From: Escherichia phage 172-1
Sequence record: NC_028903.1
Strand: one strand, 5' to 3'
Length of the DNA stretch: 64,000 nucleotides
The notes below the pieces were generated by a model. It searched no databases. It worked only from the letters and a program-made list of their open reading frames with translations, and was not told where the DNA came from. A program made the position numbers and the translations under genes. This document shows, piece after piece, positions 3,484 through 8,855 of this stretch (the stretch's first letter is position 1; each line of letters begins with the position of its first letter).

Positions 3484-3927
3484 CTACTTAACCCTTGCCT
3501 CTTTGATGGGGTCAATGTATTTCTCAACGCCCCACTTGTGTTTACTGTCTGCGTAGAAAACATCAGGCGCACACTGGCTACTTTTAGGGAATGCTTGAGG
3601 GTCTTTCGTGCTACCTTTAAACTTCTGCTTACCACGGGTGCGACCATTACAGAAGATTTCTAACTTCTTCTCCTCTTCTGTTTTAGCTCCCCCGCTCTTT
3701 AATAAAGAACGTTTATGATCGGCTAACAATAACGCATCAGCACGATGAACGCGATGGCCTACACGCTTTGCCACACTAGAAGGAATATGAGATTCAGCCT
3801 CAGCCTTTGCAGCACGACGTTTTAAACTGCGCTTACTGACGTGATTGGTTGCCTTTGGCTTCTCTTTCTCCAGTTCAGAGATAGAAAAACAACGCCCGCC
3901 TTTCATGCTGATTTTTGATTTAGCCAT
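3484..3927 (-). CDS. basic hypothetical protein
   Basis: 147 aa, K/R-rich; no recognisable domain. Confidence 0.45.
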   Translation of the reverse strand: MAKSKISMKGGRCFSISELEKEKPKATNHVSKRSLKRRAAKAEAESHIPSSVAKRVGHRVHRADALLLADHKRSLLKSGGAKTEEEKKLEIFCNGRTRGKQKFKGSTKDPQAFPKSSQCAPDVFYADSKHKWGVEKYIDPIKEARVK

Positions 3928-4427: not shown

Positions 4428-4642
4428 TTTCTTAATCCCATCTTTCTTAAGATACGGCCTAACGTTGTTTCTTGCGTGATAATATAGCTGATCGCCTCAC
4501 GTTCCAACGTTTCAATTTTCATTGGCGACGGATACCATTCACCAGTAAGCACGCATTTACATTCAACGCCATACTTTTTAGATAGTCGGTAATGTTGACC
4601 GTTGACAAGATTCCGATAAATCGTGGTATGCGTAATTAACAT
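4424..4642 (-). CDS. hypothetical protein
   Basis: Track start is GTG; nearest ATG at 4640-4642 (MLITHTT...). Confidence 0.4.
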   Translation of the reverse strand: MLITHTTIYRNLVNGQHYRLSKKYGVECKCVLTGEWYPSPMKIETLEREAISYIITQETTLGRILRKMGLRK

Positions 4643-4672
4643 GATCGTCACCTTTGATTATATTCTTTGATT

Positions 4673-4695
4673 AATGCACTGAATCAATGCACTGA
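4673..4695 (-). repeat. tandem decamer AATGCACTGA x2 (3 nt spacer) upstream of gene 4424..4642
   Basis: Exact direct repeat read in sequence; candidate operator. Confidence 0.6.
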
Positions 4696-4729
4696 TAAAA
4701 GAAAAGGCGCTACCCGTTAAGATAGCGCC
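4696..4729 (-). terminator. rho-independent terminator
   Basis: GGCGCTA / TAGCGCC stem, 10 nt loop, UUUUCUUUU tail on minus transcript; follows 4754..5653. Confidence 0.55.
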
Positions 4730-4753
4730 TCATGTTTATTATAATCGTATTAC

Positions 4754-5653
4754 TTATACTGCCTGACGTGCCGCCATAATCTCAGCTGCCTTGCGCAATA
4801 CTTCTTCCTCTTCTTCTTTCGCAGCTTGTTCGGTACGGGTAGCAACCGTTGAAGAGATACGACCGCGCAGACTTTCTAACTTCTCCTGAATAGCCGCAAT
4901 AGTCTTTTCCATTTCATCAGCGTATGAATCGAGCGATTCCAGCTCCTTGCTTGATGCGTTCATCAGATAATCGTCTGAGATCGCTACCGTTGAGGCCGTG
5001 ACTTTCTTGATGAGTGAATCAAAGGACTTTTTAACCTTGCCCACGTCTTCACTCAAGGCAATAGTGTTATCACTGGTAGCGCCATTGCGCTCATCAGCCA
5101 GCAATTTGGCTTCAATACGGATTGCATTCAAGCGTTCAACTAAAGAGTAAATATCCTGATTAAAATCTTCCTTATTTTTCGCCGGGATTTGAAGGTGGGC
5201 CGCCACGTTGTCATTGCAACCTTTGAAGAAGTTAGGATTATCGACTTCAATTTCACGGCCTAAAGCAAAGTTTTCGAAAGCATTTGACCAGCGAGCGCGG
5301 TTTTGTTCCATTTTGGCCTTAATTTGCGCTTCTTTCGCATCTTCTTTCGCTTTCGCTTCACCTTCCAGATTAATCCACTTTTTACGCCCATTTGCCGCAT
5401 CGGTGTTGAACTTGATAGGAGTTAAGAAAGTAATTGCAGTGGCGATCACGTCCATATCGCGGAAACGTTCGGTTAACAGAAAATCAACTGCCGACTGCAA
5501 TACGTCCAGCTTTTTACCGTTACTGCGGAAGTGCTGCAAGTGCCCTAACAGAAAATTAGAAACATCCTGTTTAATCGCCGCGTTATTGCTGCGGATATTG
5601 TTAGCCAGTGCGTTAAAGCCAGATTCTTTTACCAGATTGAAAATTTTAGCCAT
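4754..5653 (-). CDS. first early protein after leader (function unknown)
   Basis: 300 aa; ATG at 5651-5653 with GGTGA RBS; helical, charged C-terminus. Confidence 0.55.
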   Translation of the reverse strand: MAKIFNLVKESGFNALANNIRSNNAAIKQDVSNFLLGHLQHFRSNGKKLDVLQSAVDFLLTERFRDMDVIATAITFLTPIKFNTDAANGRKKWINLEGEAKAKEDAKEAQIKAKMEQNRARWSNAFENFALGREIEVDNPNFFKGCNDNVAAHLQIPAKNKEDFNQDIYSLVERLNAIRIEAKLLADERNGATSDNTIALSEDVGKVKKSFDSLIKKVTASTVAISDDYLMNASSKELESLDSYADEMEKTIAAIQEKLESLRGRISSTVATRTEQAAKEEEEEVLRKAAEIMAARQAV

Positions 5654-5754
5654 GATATTCACCTTTCAATTGTAAGGGCACTATGCCCCGCTCTCTATGA
5701 GCTTTTTAAGTCGCCATTGACTTATCAATAAACACTCATCATTAAGTAATTATT

Positions 5755-5802
5755 GATAAGCGGGGCGGTCTTATCAGGAGTTAACCTTGCCGCCCCCTTA
5801 TC
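5755..5802 (-). other. long stable hairpin in early leader (candidate RNase III or regulatory site)
   Basis: GATAAG-c-GGGGCGG pairs with CCGCCCC-CTTATC, 13 bp stem with one bulge, 21 nt loop, ~100 nt upstream of first early ORF. Confidence 0.4.
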
Positions 5803-6473
5803 CGTGATGTTTCATCTGGTATCTTTAATTAGTCGCTATAAACGAAGCCGACCTGATAGCGATGATCAATCATCACAATAAGGCAGTGCGTCCGACTCTA
5901 TTTAATTACATTGCTGTAACCGTCGGCAATATCGTTTATTATACTTTCGCTCTCGCTTATCCTTTATATCAGCTCTCAATCGCTAGTCATCGCCCACTAC
6001 GGGATACTGTTGCGAAAAAGTCACTAACCGCCTAACATTCCGGCGTTTTATATCTTTCGGCGAGTTTACTACATAAACCGACTATGTACTTTCATCATAA
6101 GACGAATCTCAAGCCGTTCGCATCGTAAACGTTCACACTAAACCTTATTGTTAAATAGCAATTTGCTACCCTTTAACCACCCCCCGCCGCTCTCAATTGA
6201 GCGTTAATTCGTCGGGCTTGTCTGCCCTGATTAGCTTTTTCACTGTAGCACCGTGTTAGCGATGGCCGCCGCTACCCTTAACCGTGGGCGATTAGCTTAA
6301 ACCGTTGCGTGTACTCAATGAGTCCGCTTATCAGTGGTGACGTTTCCAGTTAAGGGATTGTAAAACTGTTTACCCTGATGTTTTAGGGAGTTTTACGCCG
6401 TTTTATCTGGTATGCTTTCCGATGGTTATTATCTTCCAGCATATTTAACCGATATATGGGGACGTTTAAATTA

Positions 6474-6484
6474 TTAAAGAGCGG
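6474..6484 (-). promoter_or_regulatory. boxA-like element (CCGCTCTTTAATAAT on minus transcript)
   Basis: Matches rrn/lambda boxA core GCTCTTTAA. Confidence 0.45.
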
Positions 6485-6572
6485 TAAATCTGTCAGTGTG
6501 CTTTCTCACACTACGCAACTGTTAGCCGTTGTTACGCTTTTCACTGAAGCGGTGTTTTGCTTGAGTGTGCTC

Positions 6573-6601
6573 ATTATGGACCATGATGTTTTCGCTGTCA
6601 A
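6573..6601 (-). promoter_or_regulatory. sigma70-type early promoter P3 (TTGACA-N17-CATAAT)
   Basis: -35 at 6596-6601, -10 at 6573-6578 read on minus strand. Confidence 0.6.
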
Positions 6602-6706
6602 TCGCTTTTTTAATCTTTTTCGTCGTTCCCTTTATTGGGAGGATATATCAATCAGCTTTATTTGATTGAAGATTAAGCGATAAGGCTTAACTCATGATTC
6701 ATATTG

Positions 6707-6717
6707 TTAAAGAGCGG
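6707..6717 (-). promoter_or_regulatory. boxA-like element (CCGCTCTTTAACAAT)
   Basis: Near-identical to E. coli rrn boxA GCTCTTTAACAA. Confidence 0.5.
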
Positions 6718-6834
6718 TTACTACATTCACAGCTTAACACGTCGTGTTAGCTTGTCAAACTCTTTTTATCATCTTCTTTTATTCTTTTCCCTTATCTCGC
6801 GTGAATCTATGCGAAAGGGCAAGATGATAAATTT

Positions 6835-6845
6835 TTAAAGAGCGG
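6835..6845 (-). promoter_or_regulatory. boxA-like element (CCGCTCTTTAAAAAT)
   Basis: ~25-40 nt downstream of P2 start site. Confidence 0.45.
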
Positions 6846-6876
6846 GGATGTTTCACGTCATCGCTGACTTGTGCTC

Positions 6877-6904
6877 ATTATAGGTTAGGCTTTCCAGTTG
6901 TCAA
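6877..6904 (-). promoter_or_regulatory. sigma70-type early promoter P2 (TTGACA-N16-TATAAT)
   Basis: Perfect consensus hexamers; -35 at 6899-6904, -10 at 6877-6882 on minus strand. Confidence 0.7.
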
Positions 6905-6943
6905 ATACTTTTTCAAGTATTTTTTCACTTTCTAGCCTGATTT

Positions 6944-6953
6944 TTAAAGAGCG
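6944..6953 (-). promoter_or_regulatory. boxA-like element (CGCTCTTTAAAAA)
   Basis: Inside repeat copy A. Confidence 0.4.
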
Positions 6954-7092
6954 TTTAAAGCTGTATGGCTCCCATAACACCATTTGATAATCAGATAACC
7001 TGCGATTATTCCGGGGAATGGTATCCGCCTGCCTGCGTCTGACTTGCTTCACTCACTAGGGAGTTACTTGAGCGGTCATCTTGTCTTTCTAA

Positions 7093-7173
7093 GCTCATTA
7101 TAGTTCAGGCTTTCCGGCTGTCAAATACTTTTTCAAGTATTTTTTCACTTTCTAGCCTGATTTTTAAAGAGCG
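7093..7173 (-). repeat. ~81 bp direct repeat copy B (promoter P1 plus AT hairpin plus boxA)
   Basis: Near-identical to 6873..6953. Confidence 0.8.
7097..7124 (-). promoter_or_regulatory. sigma70-type early promoter P1 (TTGACA-N16-TATAAT)
   Basis: Perfect consensus hexamers; -35 at 7119-7124, -10 at 7097-7102 on minus strand. Confidence 0.7.
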
Positions 7174-7174
7174 G
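7164..7174 (-). promoter_or_regulatory. boxA-like element (CCCCGCTCTTTAAAAA)
   Basis: Inside repeat copy B. Confidence 0.4.
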
Positions 7175-7293
7175 GGCAAGTTTCCTTGCCTTGTATGTTT
7201 TACATCGTACCCGATACAAATCAGTATACGCCAGCTTTCACGAAGTGCAATAGGGTAAGGCAAATTATTTTAAACTTTTTCACTATAGGAAGA

Positions 7294-7305
7294 TAAAAGA
7301 GCGGG
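7294..7305 (-). promoter_or_regulatory. boxA-like element variant (CCCGCTCTTTTA)
   Basis: Sixth copy of the AGAGCGG core in the same orientation. Confidence 0.35.
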
Positions 7306-7411
7306 CGCACGTGATACATCAAAGGAAACGGCTTGCATTGCAACAATAGGCGGCCTAAAACGCACTATAGCGAGCTAAAAGGGAGTAAGGTATACAATCA
7401 CCTTATAAAAG

Positions 7412-7436
7412 AAAAAAGCCTCATGGCGAGGCTTTT
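7412..7436 (-). terminator. rho-independent terminator (weaker on plus strand)
   Basis: GCCTC / GAGGC stem, A6 upstream and T4 downstream on plus; ends the 8855..7511 operon. Confidence 0.6.
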
Positions 7437-7510
7437 AGGGAGGTTTTAAAGCATCAGATAGATTATGACCATAGGCATGACCACGGCACAATAAAGGAGA
7501 AAGATCAAGC

Positions 7511-7876
7511 CTATGGATTTACACATTGACCATTACCGGACTCAATTTCATTCATGGACTCATCAAAGAGCGTCAACGATGAGCGCATCAAGTGATTGAC
7601 CGTGATTTGTTTACCAGTGATTTCATTTACCAGTAAAATAGTTTTACTATCTGATTGCACATGATCAAAATCATTTACATGCAAAATAATAACCTTAGGT
7701 GACTTTTTACCGGTTTCATAGTTTTCTATAAGGTAGGTACATTGCAAGCCGTCAACCGTAGCAGGGGAAAACGTTGCAGCCTTAACGCTACCCATAGCCG
7801 ATAACAGCACACCTAACAGAAGAATGACCAGAAAAAAGCCTACAACCGTTTTAATGACGAATCTAATAAACCACAT
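7511..7876 (-). CDS. secreted early protein (signal peptide)
   Basis: 121 aa; N-terminal hydrophobic segment followed by AxA-like cleavage region. Confidence 0.5.
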   Translation of the reverse strand: MWFIRFVIKTVVGFFLVILLLGVLLSAMGSVKAATFSPATVDGLQCTYLIENYETGKKSPKVIILHVNDFDHVQSDSKTILLVNEITGKQITVNHLMRSSLTLFDESMNEIESGNGQCVNP

Positions 7877-8069
7877 AACAATAAACCTCTTTAATTAGTT
7901 TAAGAATATCGAAAGCGGCAACAATCAATAAATAGTTTAAAGAAACGAAGCCAATGACAAACAAAAACAGAAAGAACACAACCGGACACCTAAAAAACGT
8001 AAGAATAAAGCATATCAGCGACGAACAACGCCACTGCAACAACGAATAAGCAACGCAAAAAATAATCAT
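7863..8069 (-). CDS. small membrane protein
   Basis: 68 aa, strongly hydrophobic. Confidence 0.35.
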   Translation of the reverse strand: MIIFCVAYSLLQWRCSSLICFILTFFRCPVVFFLFLFVIGFVSLNYLLIVAAFDILKLIKEVYCYVVY

Positions 8070-8082
8070 GAATCATTTTTTG

Positions 8083-8334
8083 TCACCATTTTGGCAGATC
8101 ACAATCAAGAAGACCAGCAAGCGACAAATCACCGTCAACATAGATCGAACGAAAATCATCGCGATTAATATCAATGCGCACCAATTGGAGCCATCTTTTG
8201 GCCTCGTTAAAACTCATGGAACAAAAGGCAACGGTAGGCAGTATTACGCTACCTTCTTTCAAGCCGAACGAGATAAAAGTATCACAAACAAAACAAGAAA
8301 CACCGCTGGATAATTTGATCACTTTGTTACTCAT
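8083..8334 (-). CDS. hypothetical protein
   Basis: 83 aa ORF in operon. Confidence 0.4.
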   Translation of the reverse strand: MSNKVIKLSSGVSCFVCDTFISFGLKEGSVILPTVAFCSMSFNEAKRWLQLVRIDINRDDFRSIYVDGDLSLAGLLDCDLPKW

Positions 8335-8363
8335 TTTTTTGTTACTCCTGAAAAATAGGTTAT

Positions 8364-8855
8364 TTATTTACTGGCCTTGATGCAGTTGGCTAAATTAATG
8401 TGAACGGTATAAACAGCGTTATCAGCGTTATTGTAAACAGTAGTCGCAATCATCGACTGATTAACCGGGCCATAACTGACCAGATTCGTGACAGCTTTCG
8501 CATGGCTGTAACGTTGTACAGTGCCATACGTCACCATATCCGCATCGTTATCAGTACGCTTGAGAACTAGATCACTGTTAGACTGATTGTCTAGTGTTTT
8601 GGTACTAACGACCAGACCATCACGGGAAACGTTACTAAATTTAACCTTTAAAACGACCTGATTGGTGTCACTATCAGCACCATTGCAAATCATCCAACCT
8701 TTATTGATGGAACTAACGAAGACACTAGCCGCATCAGTTGCAGGAGCAGGACTAGCAACAGCCTTATCAGGAAAGGAAGTTACCAGCGCACTAACACCGA
8801 TCGCGGCGACTAGTGCATAACTTGCCAGATTAATCATCTGCATTGGTTTAGTCAT
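8364..8855 (-). CDS. secreted early protein (signal peptide)
   Basis: 163 aa; N-terminal MTKPMQMINLASYALVAAIGVSALV... signal-like segment. Confidence 0.5.
   Translation of the reverse strand: MTKPMQMINLASYALVAAIGVSALVTSFPDKAVASPAPATDAASVFVSSINKGWMICNGADSDTNQVVLKVKFSNVSRDGLVVSTKTLDNQSNSDLVLKRTDNDADMVTYGTVQRYSHAKAVTNLVSYGPVNQSMIATTVYNNADNAVYTVHINLANCIKASK

What the first reader, a model, noticed from the sequence alone, without database searches (positions are those of the whole stretch)
5654..6572. ~0.9 kb ORF-free transcribed leader with a 13 bp stem hairpin: possible ncRNA or processing site
Between promoter P3 and the first early ORF (start 5653) the minus strand has no ORF longer than ~20 codons, although it lies downstream of three strong promoters. 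It contains GC-rich structured stretches and a long hairpin at 5755..5802 (GATAAG-c-GGGGCGG / CCGCCCC-CTTATC) ~100 nt upstream of the first gene, reminiscent of RNase III processing sites in T7 early transcripts. An inverted boxA-like copy sits at 5687..5698. Such a long leader is unusual for compact phage genomes.
Basis: inference. Interest (0 to 1): 0.45.

Follow-up and report, generated by a model that had tools for sequence, protein, structure and literature searches.

The report
Large structured RNA in phage leader
The 0.9 kb gene-free stretch in front of the first early gene of this phiEco32-like E. coli phage encodes a large, intricately folded RNA that matches no catalogued RNA family, is kept by about 100 related phages, and is transcribed in the way the host makes its ribosomal RNA; its function is unknown.

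Summary
The window is a phiEco32-like coliphage (Gordonclarkvirinae).

**What is there.** Window 6572..5654 (minus strand) lies downstream of three near-consensus sigma-70 promoters. It has no conserved ORF on either strand.

**Conservation.**
- All 96 related GenBank phages keep it full length.
- It diverges about 2.5 times more slowly than fourfold-degenerate sites of the adjacent gene.

**Structure.** It folds into about 39 helices.
- 268 pairs are 98.8% canonical across 27 sequences.
- 80 pairs show compensatory double changes, against 5-11 in slid controls.
- G-U pairs fill 10% of paired cells and A-C only 0.35%, so the transcribed strand is the one under selection.

In a structure-aware alignment, 6 of its 7 upper-stem pairs are compensated.

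**Distant relatives.** Covariance models find the central and 3' domains in uncultured relatives whose downstream protein is only 50% identical. The core of the 5' domain was not detected in them.

**Context.**
- Five copies of the host rrn boxA antiterminator precede the RNA.
- Intrinsic terminators bracket the RNA plus the gene for gp124 (the 299-aa homologue of phiEco32 gene 124).

**Comparison.** Nothing matches in Rfam, E. coli genomes or plasmids.

**Verdict.** This is a real large structured RNA, not found in Rfam or in the papers I could read, made in rRNA style. Its function is unknown. It most likely acts as a folded RNA or ribonucleoprotein; a purely cis-acting leader is the main rival. 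It is not an isolated RNase III site.

The parts
5664..6566 (-). Large structured RNA (leader RNA). It runs from about the transcription start of the last promoter to just before the Shine-Dalgarno sequence of the gp124 gene. About 900 nt, about 39 helices, 57% of nucleotides paired.
   Evidence: 268 pairs, 98.8% canonical, 80 pairs with changes on both sides against 5-11 in slid controls; 10 helices with at least 3 compensated pairs, against 0.1 per column shuffle; strand asymmetry; purifying selection. The transcription start is inferred from the -10 hexamer and is not mapped.
6573..6601 (-).
   Evidence: 11/12 match. Conserved in alignment A1. The SU10 paper describes three sigma-70 promoters in this spacer (PMC4281155).
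6877..6904 (-). Upstream early promoter: TTGACA, 16-nt spacer, TATAAT. It lies in the second copy of a roughly 95-nt direct repeat.
   Evidence: 12/12 match. The repeat is visible.
7097..7124 (-). Upstream early promoter: TTGACA, 16-nt spacer, TATAAT. The start of its spacer resembles that of E. coli rrnB P1.
   Evidence: 12/12 match. Compared with rrnB P1 by eye.
6474..6491 (-). Last boxA (CGCUCUUUAAUAA) inside an invariant 18-mer, AGAUUUACCGCUCUUUAA. It lies about 80-90 nt after the transcription start, at the 5' edge of the structured domains.
   Evidence: It shares the GCTCTTTAA core with the rrnB boxA. It is conserved in distant loci.
6707..7173 (-). Four further boxA copies (7173-7164, 6953-6944, 6844-6835, 6716-6707), interleaved with the promoters.
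   Evidence: 6 exact 10-mers in the window against 0.12 expected.
6494..6551 (-). Three 5' hairpins (H2-H4) between the transcription start and the last boxA.
   Evidence: helices 2-4: 5 compensated pairs.
6178..6464 (-). Domain I. It is closed by helix 6464-6457/6185-6178 and contains two hairpin arms and a roughly 27-bp irregular long arm (6341-6309/6252-6220).
   Evidence: helices 7-18. Model R3 finds its core in all 27 close relatives, but in none of the distant loci L048, L052 and L054, and only weakly in L050 (E 0.09).
6150..6177 (-). Connector hairpin (H19/H20), which contains an invariant 16-mer, GCAAAUUGCUAUUUAA.
5875..6151 (-). Domain II. A multi-branch domain closed by AAUAAGGU/GCCUUAUU, with conserved junction strands UGUAGUAAA and AGCGAAA.
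   Evidence: Model R2: 77 pairs, 99.0% paired, 55 compensated against 9-15 in slid controls. Found in distant loci at E 2e-62 to 4e-11. Junction motifs.
5705..5878 (-).
   Evidence: Model R1: 53 pairs, 98.2% paired, 30 compensated against 6-8 in slid controls. One copy per genome. Found in distant loci at E 1e-18 to 1e-35.
5757..5800 (-). The stem is kept by compensatory changes, and the loop region CAAGGUUAACUCCUGAUAAGA is almost invariant in close relatives. AUAAGAC is kept in L050 and L048, the two distant loci whose alignments I inspected.
   Evidence: helix 33; helix 4: 7 pairs, 6 compensated, 100% paired. Alignment details.
6284..6292 (-). 5' arm (AUCGCCCAC) of a candidate long-range pairing between domains I and II.
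   Evidence: 9 pairs, 100% paired, 2 double-compensated. The 9-mer is kept in distant loci although the rest of domain I has diverged there.
5989..5997 (-). 3' arm (GUGGGCGAU) of the candidate long-range pairing.
5675..5702 (-). Two small terminal hairpins (H37, H38).
   Evidence: helices 37-38.
4754..5653 (-). The gp124 gene (homologue of phiEco32 gene 124; 299 aa, phrog_13018, function unknown). It is co-transcribed with the RNA, and its Shine-Dalgarno sequence GGUGA lies at about 5663-5659.
   Evidence: It occurs in 96 records of the collection, the same number and the same organism and host breakdown as for the RNA.
4704..4731 (-). Intrinsic terminator directly after the gp124 gene.
   Evidence: 12-bp stem followed by a T-run. 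SU7 carries a terminator annotation at the equivalent place.
7414..7436 (-). Intrinsic terminator that ends the upstream operon, before the promoter cluster.
   Evidence: Terminator annotations in SU7 and SU10 and in the SU10 paper.

Best explanation
The leader is a gene for a large (about 0.9 kb), multi-domain structured RNA. It is the first thing the phage expresses.

**Proposed mechanism.**
- Host RNA polymerase starts at tandem consensus sigma-70 promoters.
- It transcribes a host-type rrn boxA.
- The boxA converts it (inferred) into a Nus-factor antitermination complex.
- That complex would protect the long untranslated RNA from Rho, speed elongation and help the long-range helices form, as it does for rRNA.

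**Proposed role.** The folded RNA then acts as RNA rather than as a passive spacer. The most likely role is a stable RNA or ribonucleoprotein (scaffold or decoy) early in infection. gp124, the only protein encoded in the same terminator-bracketed unit, is a possible partner.

**Shown:** existence, conservation, strand, fold, boxA identity and unit boundaries.
**Inferred:** transcription, Nus dependence, stability, action in trans and the gp124 partnership.
For: **Selection**
- All 96 records hold the leader at full length, with 74-96% identity.
- Column conservation is 0.8-0.95, equal to the flanking coding sequence, while the promoter part of the spacer is rich in indels.
- Mean pairwise divergence is 0.141, against 0.347 at 76 fourfold sites of the gp124 gene.

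**Not coding**
- No ORF is conserved.
- The antisense ORFs show no codon periodicity (27/28/31 variable columns) and carry frameshifts and stop codons.

**Fold**
- 10 helices have at least 3 compensated pairs, against 0.1 per column shuffle and 4 on the antisense strand.
- 268 pairs are 98.8% canonical; 80 have changes on both sides, against 5-11 in slid controls and 39.8 in shuffles (0 of 500 shuffles reach 80).
- Models R1 and R2, built from close relatives only, find full-length matches with new compensatory changes in loci whose gp124 homologue is 50-70% identical.

**Strand**
- G-U pairs fill 10.1% of paired cells, A-C 0.35%.

**rRNA-style expression**
- There are five exact boxA cores on the minus strand, against 0.12 matches of the 10-mer expected in the window.
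- They share the GCTCTTTAA core with the rrnB boxA. Locus L050 carries ACTGCTCTTTAACAATTTA, 19 nt identical to rrnB.
- BoxA-mediated antitermination is known to protect long untranslated RNAs (rRNA, CRISPR arrays) from Rho (PMC7665894).

**Discrete unit**
- Terminators sit at 7436-7414 and 4731-4704.

**RNA and gp124 go together**
- Each occurs in 96 records, with the same organism and host breakdown.
- In L052, gp124 is the only part of 4.9 kb of early genes still similar to known phages.
- Phages with reduced genomes of 67-70 kb keep the RNA.
Against: - I found no expression, end-mapping or stability data. The two phiEco32 transcription papers could not be read here.
- The RNA runs straight into the gp124 ribosome-binding site with no terminator between, so a purely cis-acting role fits equally well.
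- The core of domain I is not detectable in three of the four distant loci, so constraint is uneven along the RNA.
- The sequences are related and mosaic, so cell counts overstate the number of independent events.
- The consensus structure came from the same alignment it was scored on. This is offset by the shuffle and slid controls and by tests on loci held out of model building.
- The gp124 partnership rests only on co-occurrence and operon structure. Its predicted structure was poor (pLDDT 66) and no fold or family match was found.
- NusB/NusE binding to these boxA copies was not tested.
Confidence: 0.55

Rival explanations
1. Cis-acting regulatory leader. The folded 5' UTR exists to control the early operon itself: translation or stability of the gp124 mRNA, timing, or loading of the antitermination complex so that polymerase reads through the terminator after the gp124 gene into the remaining early genes.
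For: - The RNA is contiguous with the gp124 Shine-Dalgarno sequence and AUG, with no terminator-like site in between.
- RNAalifold proposes pairing of the segment just 5' of boxA (AUUUACC) with the Shine-Dalgarno region (GGUGAAU) (helix 5).
- A terminator follows the gp124 gene, and no minus-strand sigma-70 promoter match lies anywhere downstream of it within the scanned region (to 4500). The downstream early genes therefore probably depend on read-through.
Against: - About 39 helices in three domains, plus a long-range inter-domain pairing, is far more than known cis-regulators need (my own knowledge).
- The Shine-Dalgarno-sequestering helix has no compensatory change, has 6 unpaired cells, and is not kept in distant loci (3-4 of 5-7 pairs).
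- No riboswitch or leader family matches.
Confidence: 0.28
2. Replication pre-primer or origin RNA, working like ColE1 RNA II. A strongly transcribed, structured, untranslated RNA whose folding governs R-loop formation and priming of phage DNA synthesis.
For: - It is a long structured untranslated RNA downstream of strong sigma-70 promoters.
- I found no mention of the phage replication origin in the papers I could read.
Against: - boxA antitermination and the intact downstream gene argue for read-through rather than primer formation.
- I did not scan for DnaA boxes, iterons or an AT-rich unwinding element, so their absence is not established.
- GC skew changes sign near 9-10 kb, where gene orientation flips, not at the leader.
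Confidence: 0.06
3. DNA-level element: a cruciform or hairpin signal for ejection arrest, packaging or protein binding. On this view RNA structure is incidental.
For: - The region lies a few kb from the inferred genome end, on the side that carries the early promoters.
- T5 and T7 have non-coding entry regions (my own knowledge).
Against: - G-U pairs fill 10.1% of paired cells and their DNA-equivalent A-C only 0.35%. Pairing drops from 98.8% to 89.0% when read on the other strand.
- Fewer covarying helices are found on the antisense strand.
- Long-range nested helices spanning more than 250 nt are implausible in duplex DNA (inference).
Confidence: 0.04
4. One reading: the hairpin at 5755-5802 is a T7-type RNase III processing site, and the rest of the leader is spacer.
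For: - The hairpin is stable and conserved.
- It lies about 100 nt upstream of the first gene, as R0.3 does in T7 (my own knowledge).
Against: - It has 13+3 bp, shorter than typical RNase III substrates (my own knowledge).
- The rest of the leader is equally conserved and covarying.
- Longer irregular duplexes elsewhere (6341-6309/6252-6220 and 5876-5804) would be better RNase III candidates.
Confidence: 0.04
5. Cryptic small proteins are encoded in the leader.
For: Short ORFs of 20-57 aa exist on both strands, and some annotation pipelines call them.
Against: - No sense ORF is conserved in position.
- The antisense ORFs lack third-position bias and are broken by frameshifts and stop codons in relatives.
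- Most annotators call no gene here.
Confidence: 0.03

Closest known systems
E. coli rrn operon leader and boxA/Nus antitermination (rrnTAC)
   Same: - Tandem strong sigma-70 promoters with A/T-rich upstream tracts and a 16-nt spacer.
- A boxA sharing the GCTCTTTAA core with the host rrnB boxA, placed shortly after the transcription start.
- A long, highly structured, untranslated RNA with long-range helices downstream.
   Different: - The product is not rRNA (no Rfam SSU or LSU match).
- There are five boxA copies instead of one per leader.
- I did not look for a boxB or boxC.
- A protein gene follows in the same transcript.
- Nus-factor binding is untested.
Large 'ornate' bacterial and phage RNAs: GOLLD, ROOL, OLE
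   Same: - Size class of 0.6-0.9 kb.
- Many covariation-supported helices arranged in domains.
- Function unknown.
- GOLLD and ROOL are phage- or prophage-associated.
- OLE works as a ribonucleoprotein, and the gene for its partner OapA lies next to it (my own knowledge; PMC12286853, PMC5737381, PMC9723947).
   Different: - No covariance-model match to any of them, even at E up to 10.
- It sits as a 5' leader of the first early operon of virulent coliphages, not next to tRNA clusters.
- Its distribution is narrow (Gordonclarkvirinae and a few uncultured relatives).
- Oligomerisation is untested.
T7 early leader with RNase III site R0.3
   Same: - It lies between tandem strong host-type early promoters and the first early gene.
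- It contains conserved hairpins.
   Different: - The T7 leader is under 200 nt with one processing hairpin (my own knowledge).
- Here 0.9 kb folds into about 39 helices.
- The flagged hairpin is too short for a typical RNase III site.
Cis-acting antitermination RNAs (lambda nut, HK022 put)
   Same: Phage leader RNA elements that modify host polymerase. Lambda nut also contains a boxA.
   Different: - Those elements are about 20-70 nt long.
- I did not look for a boxB, and I did not search for N- or Q-like proteins. My family scans covered only six early proteins next to the leader.
- The phage boxA here is of the rrn type, not the weaker lambda type (CGCUCUUA, my own knowledge).
ColE1 RNA II and phi29 pRNA
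   Same: Structured, untranslated RNAs transcribed from strong or early promoters with a dedicated function (replication priming and DNA packaging, respectively). phi29 is also a prolate podovirus.
   Different: - RNA II is about 550 nt and ends at an origin.
- pRNA is 174 nt and binds the portal.
- Neither matched in the Rfam scan, and nothing here links this RNA to an origin or a portal.

Membership tests
Any Rfam 15 family (including GOLLD, ROOL, OLE, HEARO, group I/II introns, RNase P, 6S, tmRNA, riboswitches) | Covariance-model score at or near the family's gathering threshold. | tested here: not met
   The best hits over window 4500-8500 at E up to 10 are spurious (14-22 bits against gathering scores of 34-167). 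The four distant loci gave a single weak hit (Ysr197, 24.5 against 167 bits), at a boxA.
rrn-type boxA antiterminator | Sequence GCUCUUUAACAA (E. coli consensus) in the transcript, downstream of the promoter. | tested here: met
   CGCTCTTTAA occurs five times on the minus strand; the 10-mer has 6 matches on both strands against 0.12 expected. The rrnB leader reads CACTGCTCTTTAACAATTTA. The copy at window 6716-6707 continues ...CAAT, and L050 is identical to rrnB over 19 nt.
rrn-type boxA antiterminator | Binding of NusB/NusE, and Nus- and SuhB-dependent suppression of Rho termination. | not testable with these tools
   This needs EMSA or ChIP, and nusB, nusE and suhB mutants or bicyclomycin.
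T7-type RNase III processing site | Irregular duplex of about two helical turns (about 20 bp or more) that is cleaved by RNase III. | tested here: not met
   The hairpin has 13 bp plus a 3-bp apical helix. Cleavage itself cannot be tested here.
Intrinsic terminator | G+C-rich hairpin followed directly by a U-tract. | tested here: not met
   No minus-strand terminator-like site lies between 6572 and 5654. The hairpin is followed by AAUAAUUACUU.
Protein-coding gene | A conserved open frame with third-position bias. | tested here: not met
Large structured non-coding RNA (generic class) | Conserved secondary structure supported by compensatory changes beyond the controls, on one strand. | tested here: met
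Large structured non-coding RNA (generic class) | Accumulates as a discrete RNA species in cells. | not testable with these tools
   No transcriptome data were available to me.

The most novel reading that the evidence does not exclude
This is a new class of large 'ornate' RNA, and the first found in cultivable, virulent E. coli phages. It would be the very first infection product, made in rRNA mode by hijacking the host Nus antitermination and RNA-chaperone machinery. It would act in trans, alone, as an oligomer, or as a ribonucleoprotein with gp124, to take over a host process or to blunt host defence before any phage protein exists.
Probability: 0.35. Interest if true: 0.9.

Novelty: new variant of a known kind. 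Interest (0 to 1): 0.8.

Why it matters
**Why the class matters.** To my knowledge only about a dozen classes of large, highly structured bacterial or phage RNAs are known, and most of those with unknown function (GOLLD, ROOL, OLE, raiA) occur in organisms that are hard to work with.

**Why this one is tractable.**
- It sits in phages that grow on E. coli. That includes BASEL-collection isolates that infect E. coli K-12 with restored O-antigen (PMC11990801).
- Genetics, structure probing, pull-downs and cryo-EM could therefore start at once.

**What else it would show.**
- It would be a case of a virulent phage copying the host's rRNA expression signals (rrn-like promoters plus boxA) to make a non-ribosomal RNA.
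- It would explain a roughly 1 kb 'empty' stretch that most genome annotators call no gene in, and a few fill with short spurious ORFs.

**A loose lead only.** These phages are reported to be unusually resistant to the defence systems tested. Nothing yet connects that to this RNA.

Tried and rejected
- **Known RNA families and tRNAs.** Rfam scans of the window and of the distant loci, and ARAGORN, gave nothing.
- **Host or plasmid origin.** blastn against E. coli genomes and plasmids gave no match.
- **More relatives from IMG/VR.** A conserved 16-mer and the gp124 protein returned only phages already known.
- **gp124 function.** Pfam gave only sub-threshold hits. PHROGs placed it in a family of unknown function. 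The AlphaFold2 model was poor (pLDDT 66, pTM 0.40). Foldseek and a PDB profile search gave only noise.
- **Shine-Dalgarno sequestration.** Pairing of the boxA-proximal segment with the Shine-Dalgarno region (helix 5) and of the transcription start with the AUG region (helix 1) is predicted, but it has no covariation and is not kept in distant loci. I treat it as unsupported.
- **Further pseudoknots.** A scan over all spans found only the 9-bp pairing between domains I and II.
- **Domain I models.** The shorter model R3 failed to find domain I in three of the four distant loci.
- **Origin signal.** GC skew shows no origin-like feature at the leader.
- **C-rich windows for Rho loading.** The leader has more G than C overall (C/G 0.80), with C-rich windows only around the last boxA. 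This is not decisive.
- **Repeated GGUUAA motifs.** They are not consistently conserved, so I dropped them.
- **Literature.** The phiEco32 genome and transcription papers (Savalia 2008, Pavlova 2012) are not held in the library, so their promoter mapping could not be checked. None of the Kuravirus and BASEL papers whose text I searched mentions a structured or non-coding RNA; I searched for boxA only in the 7-11 paper, which does not mention it.
Full report
**Identity of the window**

The region matches 96 phage records of the phiEco32 group at 74-96% identity. These are the genera Kuravirus, Suseptimavirus and Nieuwekanaalvirus of the subfamily Gordonclarkvirinae.

The finding occupies the downstream half of the roughly 1.9 kb spacer between the homologues of phiEco32 genes 125 and 124. 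The SU10 genome paper states that, as in phiEco32, this spacer holds three sigma-70 promoters and that a terminator follows the upstream gene (PMC4281155). Of the papers whose text I searched, none mentions a structured or non-coding RNA. I searched for boxA only in the 7-11 paper, which does not mention it. The two primary phiEco32 papers were not available.

**Checking the observation**

- Three promoter matches lie on the minus strand: two at 12/12 and one at 11/12. The last ends at 6573.
- From there to the ATG at 5653 the sense strand has only ORFs of 31, 25 and 20 codons.
- The hairpin is at the stated place and is real: -24.2 kcal/mol, z -4.16.
- The 'inverted boxA' is an 8/10 match on the wrong strand, inside two small hairpins.
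- The exact boxA core CGCTCTTTAA occurs five times on the transcribed strand between 7173 and 6474. Counting both strands there are 6 matches in the window, against 0.12 expected.

**The leader is under selection, but not as a coding sequence**

In a 17-genome alignment the stretch 6700-5654 is as conserved as the flanking genes (column consensus 0.8-0.95). The promoter-bearing part, 7300-6700, is full of indels. All 96 records keep the leader at full length, and its length varies only from 911 to 927 nt.

| Sites compared (mean pairwise divergence) | Value |
|---|---|
| Leader | 0.141 |
| 76 fourfold-degenerate sites of the adjacent gene | 0.347 |
| Upstream spacer | 0.286 |

No sense ORF is conserved in position. 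The recurring short antisense ORFs show no codon-position bias (27/28/31 variable columns) and are broken by frameshifts and stop codons in relatives.

**The selection acts on RNA structure**

*Blind helix scan.* I scanned 27 distinct leaders (mean identity 0.87) for stacked column pairs.

| Alignment scanned | Helices with at least 3 doubly compensated pairs |
|---|---|
| Sense strand | 10 |
| Column-shuffled alignment (mean) | 0.1 |
| Antisense strand | 4 |

*Consensus structure.* A pruned RNAalifold consensus on the tool alignment A1 has 268 pairs in 39 helices.

| Measure | Observed | Controls |
|---|---|---|
| Cells forming a standard pair | 98.8% | 34-45% with the partner slid by 1-3 columns |
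| Pairs with changes on both sides | 80 | 5-11 slid; 39.8 in shuffles (0 of 500 reach 80) |
| Cells with changes on both sides | 418 | 11-38 slid |

*Strand.* G-U pairs fill 10.1% of paired cells and A-C only 0.35%. Pairing would therefore fall to 89.0% on the other strand. This argues for an RNA of the minus strand and against a DNA cruciform or an antisense RNA.

*Single sequence.* The leader also folds better than shuffles, with z -5.68 for the sense strand and -3.92 for the antisense strand.

**Anatomy, in window coordinates on the minus strand**

1. Three small 5' hairpins (6551-6494).
2. The last boxA, inside an invariant 18-mer (6491-6474).
3. Domain I (6464-6178), which includes a roughly 27-bp irregular arm.
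4. A connector hairpin (6177-6150).
5. Domain II (6151-5875), a multi-branch domain. Its junction strands UGUAGUAAA and AGCGAAA are kept even in distant relatives.
7. Two small hairpins (5702-5675), then the Shine-Dalgarno sequence and the AUG.

One non-nested interaction has support: AUCGCCCAC (6292-6284) pairs with GUGGGCGAU (5997-5989). It is 100% paired with two double compensations, and both 9-mers persist in distant loci. I treat it as a candidate tertiary contact or an alternative pairing.

**Test on sequences not used to build the models**

Homologues of the downstream protein at 68-70% and 50% identity exist only on metagenome contigs. Their loci have about 3 kb without called genes upstream of the homologue, and 2-3 boxA copies. 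One of these is identical to E. coli rrnB over 19 nt.

| Model (built from close relatives only) | Region | Result in distant loci | Pair statistics on the combined alignment |
|---|---|---|---|
| R1 | 3' module | Found, E 1e-18 to 1e-35 | 53 pairs, 98.2% paired, 30 compensated (6-8 slid) |
| R2 | Domain II | Found, E 4e-11 to 2e-62 | 77 pairs, 99.0% paired, 55 compensated (9-15 slid) |
| R3 | Core of domain I | Not found in 3 of 4 loci; E 0.09 in L050 | Not counted |

Because R3 fails in three of the four distant loci, the 5' domain evolves faster or has been replaced there.

In the most distant locus, only the gp124 gene among 4.9 kb of early genes still matches known phages at the DNA level. 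The RNA plus gp124 is therefore the conserved core of this early region.

**Context**

- Intrinsic terminators lie just before the promoter cluster (7436-7414) and just after the gp124 gene (4731-4704).
- The RNA and gp124 thus form a discrete unit. Each occurs in 96 records, with the same organism and host breakdown.
- gp124 has no recognisable family or fold.
- The RNA has no relative in Rfam, in E. coli genomes or in plasmids.

**Mechanism**

*Shown.* This is a conserved, single-strand-specific, multi-domain fold. Host-type promoters and boxA copies precede it, and terminators bracket it together with one gene.

*Inferred from established knowledge.* boxA recruits NusB/NusE and, with NusA, NusG and SuhB, forms a complex that resists Rho on untranslated RNA and assists co-transcriptional folding (PMC7665894, PMC4807359, PMC8632103). 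An untranslated RNA of 0.9 kb would need exactly this.

*My best reading.* This is an RNA gene expressed in rRNA style, and its folded product acts as RNA or as a ribonucleoprotein early in infection (confidence 0.55). The main rival is a purely cis-acting leader that controls gp124 and read-through into the remaining early genes (0.28). Against that rival:
- The predicted helix that would sequester the Shine-Dalgarno sequence lacks covariation and is not conserved.
- The size and complexity far exceed those of known cis-regulators.

The minor rivals all score low:
- a ColE1 RNA II-like pre-primer
- a DNA-level signal
- an isolated RNase III site
- small proteins

**Novelty and verdict**

The closest analogues in function are the rrn leader system (expression mode) and the large ornate RNAs GOLLD, ROOL and OLE (size, complexity, phage or partner-protein association). 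Membership in any of those RNA families was tested and not met.

I classify the feature as a new variant of a known kind: a new large structured RNA class. It occurs in phages that can be grown on E. coli, which makes it directly testable. Interest 0.8.

Noticed in passing
window 7173-7090 and 6953-6870 (minus strand): A direct repeat of about 95 nt, nearly identical in its two copies. Each copy carries a boxA, an A/T-rich UP-like tract (GAAAAAATACTTGAAAAAGTAT) and a perfect TTGACA, 16-nt spacer, TATAAT promoter. The promoter-boxA module has therefore been duplicated in tandem.
   Followed up: partly
window 7124-7097 compared with L055 230-262 (E. coli rrnB P1): The phage promoter TTGACAGCCGGAAAGCCTGAACTATAATG resembles rrnB P1, TTGTCAGGCCGGAATAACTCCCTATAATG. 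Both have a 16-nt spacer, share GCCGGAA at the start of the spacer, and have an A/T-rich upstream tract. The phage may be mimicking a host rRNA promoter.
   Followed up: partly
window 3693-3702 (plus strand): A sixth exact boxA core, CGCTCTTTAA, lies on the opposite strand inside the early ORF 3484..3927. Only 0.12 matches of this 10-mer are expected in the whole window. Its meaning is unknown.
   Followed up: no
window 4704-4731 (minus strand): A strong intrinsic terminator follows the gp124 gene directly. No minus-strand sigma-70 promoter match lies anywhere downstream of it within the scanned region (to 4500). Expression of the remaining early genes probably requires terminator read-through, perhaps by boxA-modified polymerase.
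   Followed up: partly
L048 563-4000, L050 983-4000, L052 1080-4000, L054 897-4000: Uncultured relatives have about 3 kb without called genes upstream of the gp124 homologue. Only the last 1.1-1.4 kb or so is accounted for by boxA copies, promoter modules and the structured RNA. The upstream 1.5-2 kb was not examined.
   Followed up: no
window 7511-7876 (minus strand): The 121-aa homologue of phiEco32 gene 125 is labelled 'terminase' in PHROGs and in several GenBank records. It is small, with a hydrophobic N-terminus and a weak YobH-like Pfam hit, so the label looks like a propagated mis-annotation.
   Followed up: no
window 6461-6519 (minus strand); L052 2825-2887: The only recurring weak Rfam hit is Yersinia sRNA Ysr197, and it falls on the boxA region in both the window and a distant locus. 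That Rfam family may itself contain an rrn-leader boxA.
   Followed up: no
GenBank records MG983840.1 (myPSH1131), MZ648214.1 (IMEP8), OR296290.1: The gp124 match covers only 49-90% of the protein in a few isolates, while the leader RNA is complete in the two I could check (myPSH1131 and IMEP8). This could be sequencing frameshifts or real truncations. If real, the RNA does not strictly need intact gp124.
   Followed up: no
L002 (OQ540978.1), L013 (MZ234017.1): Some annotation pipelines fill the leader with four to nine short 'hypothetical protein' ORFs on both strands. These are not conserved and are very probably spurious.
   Followed up: partly
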